A program made the position numbers and the translations under genes. This document shows, in pieces, positions 50,959 through 59,470 of a stretch of DNA of 64,000 bases; positions within the stretch are counted from its first letter, which is position 1, and each line of letters begins with the position of its first letter. Source of the stretch: the human T2T-CHM13v2.0 reference genome, Homo sapiens; assembly GCF_009914755.1 (NCBI RefSeq), contig NC_060935.1. The stretch is one strand, 5' to 3'. The notes below the pieces were generated by a model. The model saw only the letters and a program-made list of their open reading frames with translations. It was not told the DNA's origin and made no database searches.

Positions 50959-52250
50959 GCTTTTGGTTTCCCGACCAGGAACACTTTGGCTCAGTTGCCA
51001 TGGGCCAGGAGTCTCACAGAACTACTAAGCAGCTGCTTACCCAATTTTGGCTGGAGAGATAAGTACCCTCTGGGGCCACCACAGCTGGCCCCAACCATGG
51101 TCCTGATTGCCTTGGAAGAACTGCCTTTGGAATTTCACATCGGCATCCAGATAGGTGACTGTCCTTTGTGGGCCCAGACAGAAAGATCTGCTCCTCTCAG
51201 TTTGGGAAATTTTTAAAGGAATTTCCACTTGCGGGTTGAATAAGCCCAACTGACGAAGAGAGGAAAATACCCTGACTGTTTCAGTATGGACATTCTTGGG
51301 GGCTTGTTTGTCATTGTGTGTGTGTCCAGGCAAGTGAGTGTCTTTTGTGGGTACTAGATAGTGGGATCAGCTCCTCTCCATTTGAGAAATTCTGAAGGAA
51401 TTTTGATTTGCAGGTTGATTGAGCCCAACCAATGGAGAGAGGAATCACCCCAACTGTTTCAGTTTGTAGACTTTTGGGGCTTGTTTGATGCTGCAACAGT
51501 TGGATTGTTTTAGTGATTGTTTGCAAGTGTCTGATATAGTCATCAGAAATCAGAATTTAATAAACTGACACTCTTTTGTAACACTGTTTGACCCCAGTAT
51601 AGTTTGGAATCTGGTATTTGCCCTTGAATGGGAAAGTGGGTTGGAGTTCCATGTATCCAGGCTTTTGTGCTGCTGCTGTTGGGCCAAGTTAGTATGTGAT
51701 ATTCTCCTGTGGTGCTGTTTGACCCCAGTGTTCTTTGGAGTCTGGAGAACTTTGGACTTTAAAAATTAAACTGCCACGGAAACTGTTTTACTGAAAATTT
51801 TGGTTCACAGCCTTCACTGGATTACCTATCAAGGCTAACAAAGTTCAGCCATGTGAACATGTTTGCAGACTGATGAGTTTCTATTTCAATAGCTAGAGTT
51901 CCAAGGTAAAAGCTATTGGATCTTTGGGTGTATGTATGTCTAGATGTGTCTTTGGGTGTATGTATGTCTAGATGTGTTAATGTGTAGGCATATGTATTAC
52001 GTTAAATGTTGTGACTACCCAATTGGATTATAAATAAAAGAGTGCTCATAGATTAAGTAAACAAGTCCAAAGTATTTTTCATGTTCATGCTACTTAAGTA
52101 AATCTTTAGCAAGCTAGCATTAAAATTTTGTAAAATAAAACTAGAAATGTCATCATAGTTGTCAGCATACATTTTTGTCTGGGTTTTGTATTTGTTTCTG
52201 CTAGATATTTTGAGGTATGAGAGTTTGGCACAGAAGTTTATAAAGTTGTC
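50959..52250 (+). mobile_element. MER4-group ERV internal leader (non-coding), truncated
   Basis: PBS, candidate splice donors (tag|gtgact at 51155; caa|gtgagt ~51335), an internal ~180-bp repeat and an AT-rich MER4-int-like tail. Confidence 0.7.
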
Positions 52251-53094: not shown

Positions 53095-54610
53095 AGGATG
53101 GCCAAAGGAGGCCTTATTGAGCAGGTGGCTTTTAGGTGAAGACTTAAAGAAGGTAATAGAGTTTTTATAGGTCTAATAAGAAAACAGAATGCAGGCAGAA
53201 GAAAAAGAACAGCCAAGTGCCTGAAGCAGAGAGGCCAAAGAGAGTGAGGTCTAGGACCTGACTGGACAGATGTCAGGGAGGTGACTGGAGTCTAACTTAG
53301 AGAACTGTTATAAACAATTTGTACCTCTTTCTCTAAATGAGATTGGGAGTTGCTGCAGGAGTTGCACAAAGACATGACAAAATCTGGCTTTTGTTTTAAA
53401 AGGAGCATCCTCATTTGTTATTGACGGAAGACTAAAGGCATTCTCCATCCAGAAAAGACTGCTAAGAACTGTGAAGCATATAAAAGTTTACCCTACTTGG
53501 GGCAATGTTTCATGAATGCTGACAGATAACACAAGCTTTCTGGGTCAAAGACAGAGTTTTATGACTCATTCAACAGGGAGAATGATTTTTGTGTTTGTGT
53601 CAGTCATCCTTGCTCCACAAGTCCTACAGAGGAAATACAGAAAGGCAGATTAATGTTGCAAGTGCAACAGATGTGTGTTGAAGCCAAGGAACCCTGAATT
53701 TAGGTCACCTGGATGTTTTATAATGAACTGCAAGCAAACCTGTCTGAACTTTGCTCCAGAGGGGGACATTATCTTTCTTATACTGATCAGTAAGCAGACC
53801 TACCCTCTGCTTCAGAAGAAAGCAATATCTCTAGCTTCCAAGCTGTCCTCTTTAGAAACATCCTTGAAAAGATAGTCAGGAGAAAAGGCTGTCAATGTCT
53901 CTGCTCATAAGACATACAGAAATGTGAGAGGCCATGAAGAATTTTCTCCCAGCCAGAATTAGCAGGATGTCATAATGGATTGGATGTAAAGTGGGAGGGG
54001 AAAAGATACTTAAGAATAACTCCAAGAATTTTTCTTTGAACAGGTGAAGAAATGGAGTTGCCATCAACTAAGTTGAGAAAGACTACAGGTGAAGTAGGCT
54101 GGGTGGAGAGGGTGGATAAGAAGATTGATTTGAGACATAATGAGTTTGAGATGGCTATTGGAAGGAATCCAAGAGATGTCAAACAGGCCGTTAGATACAT
54201 ATGCCTTGAGTTTGGAAAAAATTTGAGTAGTAATTTAAATGTATTAGTCATTGGCAGGTAGATTGATTTTAAAGCTATGGGACCAGATGGGATCACCGGG
54301 AACTCTGAAGTGATCCAAAATTAAGAAACTGGGGAGGAAAGAAGGGTCCACAGAGGAGACTGAGAAAAAGTAGTCAGTAAAGTTAAAGAAAAAACAAGAG
54401 AGTGTGTTGTCTTGGAAACCAAGTCCATTAAAGGATGATCTATTAAGATGAGAAGCAATAATTGACCACTGGATTTAATAACACAGAGATCCCTGATGGT
54501 TTTAAAAAGTGTTTCAGTAGAATGGTAGCAGCAAAAACCCAATTAGATGAGGTTAGGAGGGGGATTGGAGATAGCATGTATAGACAATCCTTTCAATAAA
54601 TTTTGCTACA
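53095..54610 (-). mobile_element. L2 fragments interrupted by an unclassified LTR-like insert (~53470-53950)
   Basis: L2 motifs aaatggagttgccatcaactaag and aattgaccactggatttaa. Confidence 0.65.
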
Positions 54611-54613
54611 CAC

Positions 54614-55045
54614 TGTTGAAACAAACTAATTACAGCCTGAGAAGGACTCTGTACTTCTTCATTTGAGTCCTTGTGGGTAAACTGTAACGTAGCTTAATCA
54701 TCAGACAAAATTGAAAACCTAATTTAGTAGTGTGCACCTGTAACAATACTCCAGTGTTGGCCAATCCCAGCAGCCATACTTCAACTACTCATAGACTGCT
54801 GAATGTTCAAACTGTGTTCAAATAAGGCAAGCGCCCAGTTGTAACCAATCTCTTTGTTTCTGTACCTGATTTCTGGTTCCTGTACATCACTTTACCTTTT
54901 TTGTCTATAAATTCATTTTGACCACGAGGCACCCCCGGAGCCTCGGTGAATCTGCTGTGATTTTGTAGGCTGCCGGATTCACAAATTGTTTGTTGCTTAA
55001 TGAAACTCCTTTAAGTTTAATTCAGCTGAAGTTTTTCTTTTATCA
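54614..55045 (+). mobile_element. MER57A-type 5' LTR
   Basis: tgttgaaacaaactaattacagcctgagaaggactc start; CCAAT at ~54761 and ~54845, ctataaa ~54905; ends ttttatca before the PBS. Confidence 0.88.
54803..54826 (+). CDS. GLYATL1: Putative first coding segment of the long GLYATL1 isoform (MFKLCSNK), GC splice donor
   Basis: ATG at 54803; AAG|GCAAGC fits the GC-AG donor consensus; in frame with the next exon; matches the recalled N-terminus of the 333-aa isoform. Confidence 0.65.
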
Positions 55046-55930
55046 GATGGTGTCACAAGAAGGATCTGAAGTGGAGCTTCTAGTATCCCCAGGAGCGCGA
55101 AGTGAACACGGAAGGTACCTGCAGGATCCAATTGTGTCCATTGATCTCTCAGAGTGGCTGAGGATAATAGGTAAGCTCCCTCTCGCATTTTGGAGCTTCA
55201 CACGTTGGTGTTTTGAGCTCTCTGAGTTGCTTGGAGCAAATTTCTGATCCAAACTGGGTTTGGAGTCACAACAGGAAACAGACTGGGTCTAGGAACAGAT
55301 TTGATCTTGGAATTAACTGGCCTGGATCCAGTTAGAGGCCTCTTACATCTCACTGGGTCAGAAAGGAACTGGTAGTAAGCAGTAATGTTGCAGGAGTTAT
55401 AAAATTTGGCTTTTGAAAATTCACAGGGATTTTTGTGTTCTACCCCTTTGTTTCTTTTCTTTTCTTTTTTTTTTTGTGCGCCTAGGTAGGAAAAAAATCA
55501 CTGGCTAAGTTCATCAAGAGAACCTAAGAATAAAGACAATATTTTAGATAAAAATGGGATCCTTAATTTCTGTAAAACTGAGTTCCTTCTGGCTTATACA
55601 TTAGGACTGTATACCAAGTCTTACAGAAATGGCAAAACATTACTAAAGATACTTAGAGTGGAACATTCCAAATGAACAACAATGCCAATGCATTTAAACA
55701 ACAATGCCAAGTACATTTATAAATGAGGGCTCTCAGTAAAGTCTCTTTGACTAAAAACAGTTTTGGCACTATTGGATGTCAACTGCTATTCTTTTTGGAA
55801 TAATCTGCCTTGCACTCTTTGTTGACTGCTGTGGGTGACAGGATGAGGCATGTACAGAATTGTGGTGAATGGGGAGCTTTTTCCTTCTCCCTACAAATAA
55901 AGAAACTTGATAGCTGATGGGACTGTGGGG
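55046..55930 (+). mobile_element. MER57-int leader with tRNA-Leu-like PBS (55048-55065)
   Basis: tggtgtcacaagaaggat versus Leu PBS tggtgtcagaagtgggat; strong donor tag|gtaagc at 55171. Confidence 0.8.
55047..55114 (+). CDS. GLYATL1: ERV-derived GLYATL1 exon (MVSQEGSEVELLVSPGARSEHG-R); alternative donor extends it to 55170 as 5'UTR/uORF
   Basis: Acceptor tttttcttttatcag; donor aag|gtacct; 68 nt (phase 2) joins cag|A at 58592 to give AGA ATG in frame. Confidence 0.7.
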
Positions 55931-56339
55931 AAAAAAGAAAAAAATATATAGCATTTATTCTGTTTTCATAATTCTCATATTTAACTATGGTTCCATTGCC
56001 TTCCATGTTTTTTTCAATCTTGCATAAAAATAAAAACATCTCAATGGTACAAACTAAAATTCTCAAATAAGAAATAAATCACACATACTTTCACCACCCA
56101 AAAACAATTTTCATGTTTATTTATTCCCTTCAAGTCCTTGTCCACATGCAAACATAATTTGGGTACATATGTAAAAGTTATATATTTTGATATTTTTACC
56201 CATTATTCATTATAATTGCTTTTCTGTAGTCTTCACAGTGACCACTGACTGTGTGCTACTCATATTTACAGACTGTCATTCACAAATTTATAATTTCTCT
56301 TTAGTGGACATTAAACTTATTTTCCATATATTATGAAAA

Positions 56340-56755
56340 ATTATTTTAGTTAAGGAATGAAATTCTGATACATAATACAACAGATGTGAACCTTGAAAAC
56401 ATTATGCTAAGTGAAATAAGCCAGACCCAAATGGACCAATATCATCGGATTCCATGATATATGAAGTACCCAGAATAGGCAAATTCCTAGAGAAATAAAG
56501 TAAAAGTTACTTTATATACATATATAAAATATATATATTATATATAGGGGTATATATATATATATACCCCTAGCCAGGGGCTAGGGAGAGAGGGAATGAG
56601 TAATTGTGATTTCATGGGTATAGTTGCCATTTAGGATGACAAAAAGGCTCTGGAAATGGATAAGCACCATGAATGTATACAATACCGCTGCATTGTACGC
56701 TTAAAAATGGTTAAACGGTTAGTTTTGTGTTATGTGTCCTTTACAACGATTTTTT
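56340..56755 (+). mobile_element. L1MB 3' end with an internal (TA)n-rich insertion
   Basis: aaccttgaaaacattatgctaagtgaaataagccag...ttaaaaatggttaaa. Confidence 0.8.
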
Positions 56756-58592
56756 TAAAGAAGGTGGGGAGGGGTCTCCCCAGGTTTTTAGCAGCTTCCT
56801 GATTTAGAAAAGAAATGTTGATGGTAGGAATACAGGTAGAGAACACTTTTATTTGGGTAGATGTTAGAAGCTGAGGCCAGGGTGGGGTCACAAGAGCAAT
56901 ATTAAGTATGAGGAGAGGCCCTCAACAAAGGTCATTGCAAGGGGATGGAGTAGGGAATGCACAGGAGGGGTATTTTGGACAAAGATTGGCAGCTGATAGG
57001 TGTGGGGATTGTTCTCATGTATCAGCCCAGGATATAATGTTCCCAGGGCAAATGGAACACAAGTTTTTTTGCGGGGAGTGATATAGCATGGTAGATCTTG
57101 AATTAAAACTTTTAAAATCTTGACCAAAAGCTCAAAGGAGAAGACAATAGTGAAACACATGGGTATGGGCAATTTTAGTTAAATCAGGTGAGAAACAGAG
57201 CAAAGAAAGCACTTGGAGATGGGGGGAAGAAAAAGACCATTTTTTTTTTGACAGCTACAAGAACAGCAGAGTCAGACAGGGGATAGGCTCATGTCAGAGA
57301 TCCAGTTTTATTTACTAAAAGTTCCTTGGGTATTCAAACATTCTGAAATTATGAGATCTTGCAAAAGGATGCCTTTGTTTAAACATTGCTTCATCTAGCT
57401 ACAGAACATAGTTTAACTTTGAGGCCTTTGACCCCAGACAAGATAAAATATGTTTCACCTTGCCTATTACTTAACACATATTTGTTAACTATTTTAACTT
57501 CATGGATAAAAAATTTCAAAAATCTGTGTTAACTGATTTGCAAATGATTGTTTCAAATATCTGATTCGTGGGTTCCTTCTCTTACATTAATTTTGTTGTA
57601 AGTTCTTCACATTTTTAATTATTTTTACATCATTGAATATAATTGCTAAATCTCTATATGACATGTTGATTAATATGAAGTCAATTAAAAAAACTAACAT
57701 ATATTAAAACTTGTTCTTACTTTATTCCAGGCATAATGCTATGCATTTTATACATATTACATTGTGTAATCTCAATCCTTTGGAAAACATGCATTCTAAT
57801 TTCCAGTTCCAAAGTTGTGAGAAAACACTTTGAGGTTCTGATTGGTTAAGCAACTTAACAAAGAAGTATGAGATGGAACTAAAATTTGAAATCAGCCTAA
57901 GCTTTGAACCTATCAGTTGTGATGATCACCTTCTCCAAGTTATTGTTAAATTATTGGCACATTTCTAAGAATTCTGAATGATATTTCAACAAAAGTTTAC
58001 AGATATGTGTTAAAATTTTTCTATCTGTTTTTAATTTTTGTAATGAAACTGGGATAAGTTCCAAAATGGCCGTAGGTTTGAAATATTTGGCCCTGAGAAA
58101 CTAAAGAAAATCTATGCCTACTCCTGCTCCAAGTTTTTTAGTCATACCTGTTCTTAGAGGGCTGATATTTTCTATTGCAGATGAAAGAAGAATTCTCAGG
58201 CATATAATGACCAAAATACAGGAAAAAACTTATGATGGTAGTGGTGGAGTGTTCTGTTACAGGCATTTGGGAAGCTCACAGAACTCTTAATATTCACTTT
58301 TAATTCTTTCCACAAGGGAGGAAGGGCATGGGTTTTGGAGCCAGTCATATATGGTTTCAAAATCTGACTCTGGCATTTATCTCTAAGAACTTGAGAAATT
58401 TACTTAGTCCCTCTGAGATTTGGTGTATTCAGAATGAATATGATACTAACAGTACCTACATCACGAGTGTTACTTGAATGGAGATGTATAAAGTGCATTT
58501 TAAATTCATTTGTTTCCTTAACATTTTCCCTTCATTTCTTATCTTTTCAGAGTTTCTTCTTCAAGGTCTCAAGGTCTGAAGCATCCCACAGA

Positions 58593-58670
58593 ATGATCCT
58601 ACTGAATAACTCCCATAAGCTGCTGGCCCTATACAAATCCTTGGCCAGGAGCATCCCTGAGTCCCTGAAG
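58593..58670 (+). CDS. GLYATL1: Glycine N-acyltransferase-like protein 1, first canonical coding exon (MILLNNSHKLLALYKSLARSIPESLK)
   Basis: Recognised N-terminus; acceptor ttttcag at 58550 (exon from 58551); donor aag|gtcagg at 58671. Confidence 0.96.
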
Positions 58671-59362: not shown

Positions 59363-59470
59363 GTGTATGGCTCTGTGTATCACATCAATCACGGGAACCC
59401 CTTCAACATGGAGGTGCTGGTGGATTCCTGGCCTGAATATCAGATGGTTATTATCCGGCCTCAAAAGCAG
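59363..59470 (+). CDS. GLYATL1: GLYATL1 coding exon (VYGSVYHINHGNPFNMEVLVDSWPEYQMVIIRPQKQ); gene continues beyond the window
   Basis: ccttcag acceptor, 108 nt phase 0-0, cag|gtaggc donor; conserved glycine N-acyltransferase motif. Confidence 0.97.

What the first reader, a model, noticed from the sequence alone, without database searches (positions are those of the whole stretch)
54803..58595. Retrovirus-built 31-aa N-terminal extension of GLYATL1: LTR ATG, GC-AG intron and a translated primer-binding site
Seen: 54803-54826 (in the MER57 LTR, GC donor), 55047-55114 (acceptor formed at the LTR end; the exon reads through the tRNA-Leu PBS) and a second acceptor one base before the ATG (cag|A ATG, 58592) join without stops to give MFKLCSNKMVSQEGSEVELLVSPGARSEHGR-MILLNN. 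This matches my recollection of the annotated 333-aa isoform; its origin from non-coding ERV sequence is the notable part. Inference: de novo protein sequence that could alter localisation or stability of the enzyme.
Basis: partly seen in the sequence, partly recalled or inferred. Interest (0 to 1): 0.8.

Follow-up and report, generated by a model that had tools for sequence, protein, structure and literature searches.

The report
Retroviral exons at the GLYATL1 start
An old retroviral fragment supplies a start codon and two 5' exons to the human GLYATL1 gene, but the long isoform it builds most likely swaps out the enzyme's first 26 residues rather than extending an intact enzyme.

Summary
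There is an ATG at 54803. A GC donor sits at 54827 and an AG acceptor at 55045-46, exactly at the end of a 432-bp LTR. A decayed tRNA-Leu primer-binding site (55048-65, 15 of 18 matches) is read as codons.

The key junction, 55114 to 58592, is not supported. Neither boundary is in the RefSeq exon table. Both splice sites are weak.

The listed exons 54753-54826, 55047-170 and micro-exon 58551-573, joined to 59363, also give 333 aa. In that route 57 new residues replace the first 26 residues. Of 1024 chains of listed exons, all 128 that give 333 aa use this route.

Orangutan, snub-nosed monkey and macaque protein models have this architecture. A human fragment reads exon 2 to its annotated end.

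These isoforms lose positions 1 to 20-22 of the conserved Gly_acyl_tr_N domain. When full exon 3 is used, the same ATGs open a 50-58-codon uORF. Its stop codon lies inside the alternative donor.

The new peptide changes between species at about the neutral rate. This is an ordinary, already annotated case of ERV exonization with tidy anatomy. The "MER57" name could not be tested.

The parts
54614..55045 (+). 5' LTR of a truncated endogenous retrovirus, sense to GLYATL1. It begins TG and ends CA. The family name MER57 is not verified.
   Evidence: 35 dispersed matches at 83-85% identity start at query positions 47-76 (most at 52-57, i.e. window about 54611-54616) and end at 477-487; the 7 LTR-only copies stop at 55043-55046, 5 of them at 55045; there is no second LTR in the window.
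54753..54826 (+). Annotated alternative first exon, wholly inside the LTR. It carries ATG 54803-05 in a weak context (tgctgaATGt).
   Evidence: Hub exon table. Position 54753 is not preceded by AG, so it is a transcript 5' end and not an acceptor. The ATG is present in 4/4 paralogous, 7/7 LTR-only and 5/25 LTR+leader copies.
54827..55046 (+). 220-nt GC-AG intron, made of LTR sequence (54827-55045) plus the first spacer base (G 55046). The donor is aag|GCAAGC. The acceptor AG is the last A of the LTR plus that spacer base.
   Evidence: GC at 54827-28 is inherited from the family (20/25, 7/7 and 4/4 copies). G at +5 (54831) is found in 0 of 36 other copies. AG at 55045-46 is present in 23/25 dispersed leader copies.
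55047..55170 (+). Exon 2, a 5'UTR exon of the selected transcript. It is the ERV spacer base, primer-binding site and leader, up to a GGTAAG donor at 55170-75. It opens with ATG 55047.
   Evidence: Hub table; 41 matches listed from 40 of 798 candidates scored; 40 of them span the LTR/leader junction region, one is a 48-nt piece; GT at 55171-72 in 22/25 dispersed and 4/4 paralogous copies.
55048..55065 (+). Decayed tRNA-Leu primer-binding site. It is read as part of codons 9-15 of the LTR-ATG frame.
   Evidence: The window matches 15/18. Dispersed copies match 18/18 (6 copies), 17 (5), 16 (11), 15 (1) and 14 (2). The tRNA-Leu(cag) gene is at L058:124-206 (ARAGORN).
55047..55935 (+). Extent of the ERV internal fragment (leader and beyond). 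It is truncated at about 55935.
   Evidence: homology to the dispersed copies ends at 55922-55939 in 16 of 25 copies. None reaches further, although the loci would have allowed it.
55115..55120 (+). It is unannotated and is ancestral family sequence.
   Evidence: hub table (no exon ends at 55114); GT is present at this place in 20/25 dispersed copies.
58551..58573 (+). Annotated 23-nt short form of exon 3, using the alternative donor aag|GTCTGA at 58574. This is the piece that puts the ERV frame in phase with exon 59363.
   Evidence: Hub table.
58577..58579 (+). TGA that ends the ERV-initiated frame when full exon 3 is used. It lies at +4 to +6 of the alternative donor and 13 nt before the main ATG.
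58590..58592 (+). It is unannotated and has a poor pyrimidine tract.
   Evidence: hub table (no exon starts at 58592).
58593..58670 (+). Canonical start codon and first 26 codons of GLYATL1. These are skipped in the 333-aa route.
   Evidence: Hub table. They align to Gly_acyl_tr_N profile position 1 onward in the canonical monkey protein P0011.
59363..59470 (+). Next coding exon (phase 0), to which the micro-exon joins.
   Evidence: Hub table.

Best explanation
A truncated endogenous retrovirus lies in sense orientation in the 5' region of GLYATL1. It consists of a 5' LTR (54614-55045) and about 0.9 kb of leader, with a tRNA-Leu primer-binding site. It was already there before the GLYATL1 segmental duplications.

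The retrovirus supplies two exons.
1. An alternative first exon (54753-54826) inside the LTR. It has a weak-context ATG and a GC donor. A change unique to this copy (G at +5) completes the GC-donor consensus.
2. Exon 2 (55047-55170). Its acceptor AG is formed at the LTR/spacer boundary. Its first codon, ATG, is the spacer A plus the TG of the primer-binding site. Its donor GGTAAG is inherited from the virus and is probably the viral splice donor (inferred).

Exon 2 is part of the selected mRNA's 5'UTR. What follows depends on exon 3.
- With full exon 3, the ERV ATGs open a uORF of 58 codons (from 54803) or 50 codons (from 55047). It ends at TGA 58577, 13 nt before the true start codon.
- With the alternative donor at 58574, the TGA is spliced out and the frame fuses to exon 59363. 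This gives a 333-aa protein from ATG 54803, or a 325-aa protein from ATG 55047.

In those proteins 57 (or 49) new residues replace residues 1-26. Of the 171 new coding bases, 148 come from the ERV and 23 from the exon-3 5'UTR.

Shown: the anatomy, the copy comparisons, the frame arithmetic and the primate models. Inferred: the swapped isoform is a minor product under little or no constraint, it has lost the native N-terminal fold element and any N-terminal targeting, and the main effect of the ERV ATGs is uORF-like.
For: - LTR and leader are multi-copy. The boundaries are set by the LTR-only copies. The fragment is truncated at about 55935.
- The primer-binding site matches tRNA-Leu: 15/18 here and 18/18 in 6 of 25 copies.
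- Four chr11 copies with matching flanks show that the insertion predates the duplications.
- The splice sites and frames of every route are printed.
- In one search, all 128 of 1024 chains of listed exons that give 333 aa contain 54753-826 + 55047-170 + 58551-573.
- Protein database: P0007 (Pongo, 333 aa), P0009 (Rhinopithecus, 332 aa), P0010 (Macaca, 325 aa, starting at the exon-2 ATG) and P0008 (Macaca, 387 aa) all read exon 2 to its end. They then read the micro-exon and continue with VYGS.
- The human fragment P0003 reads exon 2 to its annotated end.
- Pfam: the 333-type proteins match Gly_acyl_tr_N only from profile position 21 or 23. Canonical proteins match from position 1. Solved GLYAT 7pk0 aligns from residue 1.
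- uORF geometry and ATG contexts are. After the LTR exon, the exon-2 ATG sits in aataagATGg.
- Weak constraint: human versus Rhinopithecus is 47/57 identical in the new part, against 36/36 in the next exon. The canonical 26 aa are 26/26 identical to macaque P0014.
- Net charge is -2 for the new 57 aa and +3 for the canonical 26 aa.
Against: - I never saw the human 333-aa record itself. The database is clustered at 90% identity and no human full-length long isoform appeared as a representative. The human architecture therefore rests on the hub exon table plus arithmetic, a 73-aa human fragment and other primates' models.
- Three of the four monkey and ape models carry NCBI predicted-model isoform labels (isoform X1 or X2). 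The fourth, P0009, is listed only as a UniRef entry and I did not check its basis. An ORF-seeking pipeline would favour any open route.
- No RNA-seq, Ribo-seq or mass-spectrometry data were available. The usage of each junction, and whether any ERV ATG is translated, are unknown.
- That the 55171 donor is the virus's own splice donor is inference. GT retention in 22/25 copies is not clearly above the ~82% per-base background.
- The neutral-rate argument uses a recalled human-Old World monkey divergence and only one or two comparisons.
- The structure model of P0007 was too poor (pLDDT 43) to say what the new N-terminus does.
Confidence: 0.78

Rival explanations
1. The long isoform is the intact 302-aa enzyme with 31 extra ERV-derived residues, made by splicing 54826^55047 and then 55114^58592.
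For: The three pieces join without stops and give 302+31 = 333 aa. GT at 55115 and AG at 58590-91 exist.
Against: - Neither boundary is in the hub table of all RefSeq exons.
- The donor lacks the +4 and +5 consensus bases. The acceptor has 9/18 pyrimidines and lies 41 nt after a strong acceptor.
- None of the 24 database sequences I read carries this junction. Four primate models and one human fragment read past 55114.
- The length match is explained by the annotated route.
Confidence: 0.06
2. The N-terminally swapped 333/325-aa protein is a selected, functional isoform, for example a non-mitochondrial or regulatory form of GLYATL1. On this view the open frame is kept in catarrhines because it is used.
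For: - The frame is open in the human gene and in 3 of 4 human paralogous copies.
- The protein models from Pongo, Rhinopithecus and Macaca carry the same N-terminus. Rhinopithecus differs by a whole-residue deletion rather than a frameshift.
- The donor-improving G at +5 is unique to the GLYATL1 copy.
- The charge changes from +3 to -2.
Against: - The new part is 82% identical between human and Rhinopithecus, while the flanking exon is 100% identical. That is about what neutral drift would give (my estimate).
- The frame is also open in copies next to annotated pseudogenes, so openness can simply be inherited.
- Database models are chosen for having ORFs.
- The isoform lacks the first 20-22 profile positions of a conserved domain.
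- No paper on it was found.
Confidence: 0.12
3. The LTR ATG matters mainly through a different transcript. The LTR exon would be spliced directly to full exon 3, skipping exon 2. That route is in frame and would give a true 22-aa extension of the intact enzyme (324 aa).
For: - The route is open and in frame. 128 of 1024 chains give 324 aa (I did not list which chains these are).
- The 42 nt before the main ATG are read in frame in macaque P0014 (324 aa) and Aotus P0017.
Against: - I cannot tell from the hub table whether any transcript joins 54826 to 58551.
- P0014 starts from a different first exon, not the LTR one.
- Exon 2 has a strong acceptor and a strong donor, so skipping should be the minority outcome.
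Confidence: 0.08

Closest known systems
LTR/ERV-derived alternative first exons and promoters of human genes (general class; examples recalled, not looked up here)
   Same: A sense-oriented LTR supplies a transcript 5' end and a splice donor that joins host exons. The chimeric transcript is annotated.
   Different: The annotated 5' end (54753) and the donor lie upstream of the LTR's TATAAA (54906-11). That motif is present in 14/25, 5/7 and 4/4 copies. The exon therefore sits in what should be U3 and does not start at the expected viral transcription start (inference). Promoter activity was not tested.
Transposable-element exonization that alters a protein's N-terminus (known kind; recalled)
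   Same: Non-coding repeat sequence becomes a spliced exon and is translated in frame with a host gene.
   Different: The exon is exactly the retroviral segment from the LTR end to the leader splice donor. Its first codon is built from the spacer and the primer-binding site. The result replaces, rather than adds to, the conserved N-terminus.
Upstream ORFs that end just before the main start codon
   Same: With full exon 3, the ERV ATGs open 50-58-codon frames that end 13 nt before the main ATG.
   Different: The uORF stop codon lies inside an alternative donor site. One splice choice therefore converts the uORF into the N-terminus of the main protein. Translation was not tested.
GC-AG introns (minor class of U2-type introns; recalled)
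   Same: GC at +1/+2 with otherwise consensus donor bases (aag|GCAAGC), and a normal pyrimidine-rich acceptor.
   Different: Almost the whole 220-nt intron is LTR sequence. Only its last base, G 55046, is spacer. The GC is ancestral to the repeat family. Only the +5 G is new.

Membership tests
LTR retroelement (endogenous retrovirus) 5' end | Dispersed multi-copy repeat with sharp ends, beginning TG and ending CA | tested here: met
   Searches show sharp ends in the dispersed copies. TG at 54614-15 and CA at 55044-45 are visible.
LTR retroelement (endogenous retrovirus) 5' end | Primer-binding site complementary to a tRNA 3' end, a few bases after the LTR | tested here: met
   The site at 55048-65 lies 2 nt after the LTR. 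It matches 15/18 positions of tRNA-Leu(CAG) from L058 plus CCA. Six of 25 family copies match 18/18.
LTR retroelement (endogenous retrovirus) 5' end | Internal gag/pol/env homology | tested here: inconclusive
   Four stop-to-stop ORFs from the first ~1.5 kb of two family copies gave no retroviral Pfam match. The window's fragment has only ~0.9 kb of internal sequence.
LTR retroelement (endogenous retrovirus) 5' end | Second LTR and target-site duplication | tested here: not met
   There is no second LTR copy in the 64-kb window. The element is truncated at about 55935, so no duplication can be sought.
MER57 (Repbase LTR family, ERV1) | Match to the MER57 library sequence | not testable with these tools
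No repeat library is on hand. (passages of PMC5753468) only lists MER57 LTR names and their internal parts in its LTR-retrotransposon table.
   The hub table lacks both boundaries. In one search all 333-aa chains use the micro-exon; none of the 24 sequences I read has it.
N-terminal replacement isoform (annotated route) | Exons 54753-826, 55047-170 and 58551-573 joined to 59363, in one open frame | tested here: met
   The same architecture is seen in P0007, P0008, P0009 and P0010. The human full-length record was not seen.
Gly_acyl_tr_N domain (PF06021), complete | Match from profile position 1 | tested here: not met
   P0007 matches positions 21-201 and P0009 matches 23-201. Canonical P0011 and P0014 match 1-201.
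uORF | Upstream ATG with an in-frame stop before the main ATG in the selected transcript | tested here: met
   ATG 55047 opens 50 codons that stop at 58577-79. Translation is not testable here.
GC-AG intron | Annotated exon boundaries with GC at the donor and AG at the acceptor | tested here: met
   Hub exons 54753-54826 and 55047-55170, with the sequence. Junction reads are not testable here.

The most novel reading that the evidence does not exclude
The retroviral leader cassette works as a splice-operated translational switch for GLYATL1. The ERV-derived ATG at 55047 is present in the selected mRNA. It either opens a repressive uORF that ends 13 nt before the true start, or it becomes the start of the protein. 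The second outcome follows use of the alternative donor whose own sequence contains the uORF stop codon. That protein has a swapped, acidic N-terminus and would probably not reach the mitochondrion. Because most copies of this ERV family carry the same acceptor-ATG...GGTAAG cassette, the family would be a general source of 'exon plus start codon' modules.
Probability: 0.1. Interest if true: 0.55.

Novelty: new member of a known kind. Interest (0 to 1): 0.3.

Why it matters
This is a clean, fully dissectable example of how retroviral non-coding parts become host exons and codons. The parts used are the LTR end, the spacer, the tRNA primer-binding site and the leader splice donor.

Correcting the architecture matters for anyone expressing or interpreting the 'long isoform'. 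It is not the enzyme with a tag-like extension. It is a protein that lacks the first conserved residues of the acyltransferase N-domain.

The ERV-derived ATG in the main mRNA's 5'UTR may also dampen GLYATL1 translation. The gene is studied in liver, kidney, prostate and breast cancer. The general phenomenon, however, is well known, and no sign of selection on the new peptide was found.

Tried and rejected
- **Structure.** An AlphaFold2 model of the Pongo 333-aa protein from a 19-row alignment had mean pLDDT 43 and pTM 0.32. It was too poor to say whether the new N-terminus replaces the lost helix. I drew no conclusion and did not use the second job.
- **ERV class.** Four ORFs from two family copies gave no retroviral Pfam domain. 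The ORFs in the window's internal fragment were only listed, not scanned.
- **Family name.** No repeat library is available. Papers gave only lists of names.
- **Literature.**
  - GLYATL1 + MER57: 0 papers.
  - The three peptides: 0 papers.
  - GLYATL1 with ERV/LTR/TE terms: the one listed paper that mentions GLYATL1 (25 papers listed of 20,153 matching at least 2 terms) concerns a different provirus, HML-2_11q12.1.
  - GLYATL1 with uORF, Ribo-seq or N-terminal extension terms: none of the 10 listed papers (of 1,317 matching) mentions GLYATL1.
  - Accession terms: two gene-list papers seen in the listing only.
  - The 2007 cloning paper is not held. A citing paper says it reported 302 aa (passages).
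  - Supplementary tables were not opened. TE-chimera or proteomics supplements may list this locus.
- **Human long isoform.** It was not found as a database representative.
- **First copy comparison.** ignored strand and failed for minus-strand loci. It was redone.
Full report
**1. What is in the sequence**

- ATG 54803-05 opens MFKLCSNK and runs to 54826.
- The next bases are GCAAGC, so the donor is aag|GCAAGC.
- 55045-46 is AG behind a T-rich tract (ttttatcag|ATG).
- The frame runs open from 55047 through 55114 and on to 55170.
- ATG 58593 starts MILLNN...

**2. The retroviral identity is real, although the family name is untested**

*The LTR is a multi-copy repeat.* A search of the window's own genome with 54560-55046 gave 1714 first-look candidates. 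Forty were scored and all matched.
- One match is the window itself.
- Four are chr11 copies that also match the 5' flank (84-88% identity).
- Thirty-five are dispersed copies at 83-85% identity. They begin at query positions 47-76, most at 52-57 (window about 54611-54616), and end at 477-487.

*The LTR boundaries.* Seven LTR-only copies lose homology at 55043-55046, five of them at 55045. The LTR is therefore 54614 (TG) to 55045 (CA).

*The leader follows the LTR.* A second search across the boundary (54960-55330) listed 41 matches from 40 of 798 candidates scored. Forty of them span the boundary region and one is a 48-nt piece. So 55047 onward is the element's internal leader.

*The element is truncated.* Homology to 25 dispersed LTR+leader copies continues to about 55935 and then stops (16 of 25 end at 55922-55939). 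There is no second LTR in the window. This is a truncated 5' LTR plus about 0.9 kb.

*The primer-binding site.* A 20-nt motif for tRNA 3' ends found 31 sites in the genome against 0 for the reversed control. ARAGORN calls tRNA-Leu(cag) at L058:124-206. I compared copies with the reverse complement of the last 15 nt of that gene plus CCA.

| Copies | Matches out of 18 |
|---|---|
| 25 dispersed copies | 18 (6 copies), 17 (5), 16 (11), 15 (1), 14 (2) |
| Window, 55048-65 | 15 |

So 'a translated tRNA-Leu PBS' is correct. The exon-2 ATG is the second spacer base (A 55047) plus the TG of the PBS.

*What could not be settled.* I could not test the name MER57, because no repeat library is available (searches gave only name lists). 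Pfam found no retroviral domain in four ORFs from two copies.

**3. Which features are inherited and which are new**

Counts are over 36 non-self copies. Dashes mark positions beyond the LTR-only copies.

| Feature | Dispersed LTR+leader (n=25) | LTR-only (n=7) | Paralogous (n=4) |
|---|---|---|---|
| GC at 54827-28 | 20 | 7 | 4 |
| G at +5 (54831) | 0 | 0 | 0 |
| ATG at 54803 | 5 | 7 | 4 |
| AG at 55045-46 | 23 | - | 4 |
| ATG at 55047 | 21 | - | 0 |
| GT at 55171-72 | 22 | - | 4 |
| Exon-2 frame open and in phase | 1 of 23 alignable | - | 3 |

- The G at +5, which completes the GC-donor consensus, is found in no other copy. It is specific to this copy.
- Among the alignable dispersed copies, the commonest exon-2 length is 125 nt (14 of 23). 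It is 124 nt here.
- The coding potential therefore arose in the GLYATL1-family copy before the segmental duplications.
- The four paralogous copies sit at window-equivalent positions of about -10.7, +81.6, +152.1 and +195.7 kb. I computed these from the places. At least two lie just upstream of GLYATL1P pseudogenes in the hub table.

**4. The key junction is not supported**

The hub table lists every exon of the 18 RefSeq transcripts. It includes variants that share one boundary, such as 58551-58670 and 58551-58573. It contains no exon ending at 55114 and none starting at 58592.

Both sites are weak.
It has no A at +4 and no G at +5. The annotated donor is tag|GTAAGC.
It lies 41 nt behind an acceptor with 16 of 18.

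The table does list 54753-54826, 55047-55170 and the 23-nt form 58551-58573. Joined to 59363, these give one open frame of 57 codons (24 + 124 + 23 nt) in phase with the next exon. The product is 57 + 276 = 333 aa, the same length as 31 + 302.

I enumerated all 1024 ordered chains of the listed upstream exons with either form of exon 3. All 128 chains that yield 333 aa contain exactly this trio. Papers give the canonical length as 302 aa (passages).

**5. Independent protein evidence**

I searched 5.8 billion clustered proteins with the 41 residues of exon 2. This returned 6 hits among 10 candidates. A second search with P0007 returned 23 hits among 942 candidates.

I read 24 of the 27 distinct proteins. 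P0020, P0021 and P0026 were not read.

| Protein | Source and length | What it reads |
|---|---|---|
| P0007 | Pongo, 333 aa | LTR peptide, all of exon 2, micro-exon, then VYGS... |
| P0009 | Rhinopithecus, 332 aa | Same as P0007 |
| P0010 | Macaca, 325 aa | Starts at the exon-2 ATG, as predicts |
| P0008 | Macaca, 387 aa | Enters the same frame from another first exon |
| P0003 | Human fragment, 73 aa | Exon 2 to its annotated end, then joins exon 59363 out of frame |

None of the 24 has ...SEHGR followed by MILLNN.

Two caveats apply.
- P0007, P0008 and P0010 carry NCBI predicted-model isoform labels (isoform X1 or X2). P0009 is listed only as a UniRef entry, and I did not check what it rests on.
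- The human full-length long isoform did not appear as a cluster representative, so I did not see it directly.

**6. Consequences**

*Loss of the domain start.* Pfam places Gly_acyl_tr_N from profile position 1 in the canonical proteins P0011 and P0014. In P0007 and P0009 the match starts only at position 21 or 23. Solved GLYAT 7pk0 aligns from residue 1. The long isoform therefore lacks the first conserved element of the fold.

*Charge.* The new 57 residues have a net charge of -2. The 26 residues they replace have +3. I infer, but did not test, that any N-terminal mitochondrial signal is lost.

*uORF with full exon 3.*
- The ERV-initiated frame ends at TGA 58577-79. This lies inside the alternative donor GTCTGA and 13 nt before the main ATG.
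- The uORF is 58 codons from ATG 54803 and 50 codons from ATG 55047.
- Exon 2 is in the selected transcript, so the 50-codon uORF belongs to the main mRNA.
- Behind the LTR exon, the 55047 ATG has a strong context (aataagATGg). ATG 54803 has a weak one (tgctgaATGt).

*Constraint.* The new part is 47/57 identical between human and Rhinopithecus, and 44/57 between human and the Pongo paralogue. The next exon is 36/36 and 34/36 identical. The canonical 26 aa are 26/26 identical to macaque P0014. This looks like drift rather than constraint. It is a rough judgement that rests on a recalled divergence.

**7. Comparison with what is known, and verdict**

LTR-derived first exons, TE exonization into coding sequence, GC-AG introns and uORFs are all established kinds. 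This isoform type is already annotated.

I found no paper describing its retroviral origin (searches; supplements not opened). The overlap would, however, be visible in any repeat track.

Three details are neat:
- Exon 2 is exactly the stretch from the spacer and PBS to the leader donor.
- A start codon is built from the spacer and the PBS.
- The uORF stop codon sits inside an alternative donor.

Interest is modest.

Noticed in passing
L018-L042 (dispersed copies of the same ERV family), aligned to window 55037-55176: Most copies carry a ready-made cassette. It consists of a T-rich tract with AG at the LTR end (23/25), ATG as the first three exon bases (21/25) and GT about 125 nt later (22/25). 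Any sense-intronic copy could be exonized in the same way. I did not check whether others are.
   Followed up: partly
window 50992-51154 with 55047-55170 and 58551-58592 (5'UTR of the selected transcript): The 329-nt 5'UTR has three upstream ATGs, at 51000 (20 codons), 51097 (26 codons) and 55047 (50 codons). The first two have G at +4 and C at -3.
   Followed up: partly
P0003 (human 73-aa database fragment): This fragment joins exon 2 (ending at 55170) directly to exon 59363, skipping exon 3. It reads the latter out of frame. It looks like an incomplete transcript model.
   Followed up: no
GLYATL1 gene; position in the window not determined: A paper names an HML-2 (HERV-K) locus, HML-2_11q12.1, on the sense strand inside GLYATL1. 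It reports co-expression with the gene in colorectal cancer (PMC12922068, passages). This is a different element from the one studied here.
   Followed up: no
G000:C1:160578689-160733822 (L043-L054 and further hits): Twenty-two hits of the tRNA-Leu 3' motif lie about 7.4 kb apart on one strand. L043 holds tRNA-Gly, tRNA-Asp and tRNA-Leu together. This is a tandemly repeated tRNA gene cluster.
   Followed up: no
L055, L056, L057: Three sites with the ...ACTTCTGACA 3' end are not called by ARAGORN. Rfam's tRNA model matches them over 105-107 nt (50.7-50.9 bits). They are presumably intron-containing tRNA genes. Their anticodons were not determined.
   Followed up: partly
window 58551-58592: The 42 nt of exon 3 before the main ATG are open and in frame with it. 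Macaque P0014, Aotus P0017 and Chlorocebus P0012 models read them as N-terminal extensions from other starts.
   Followed up: partly
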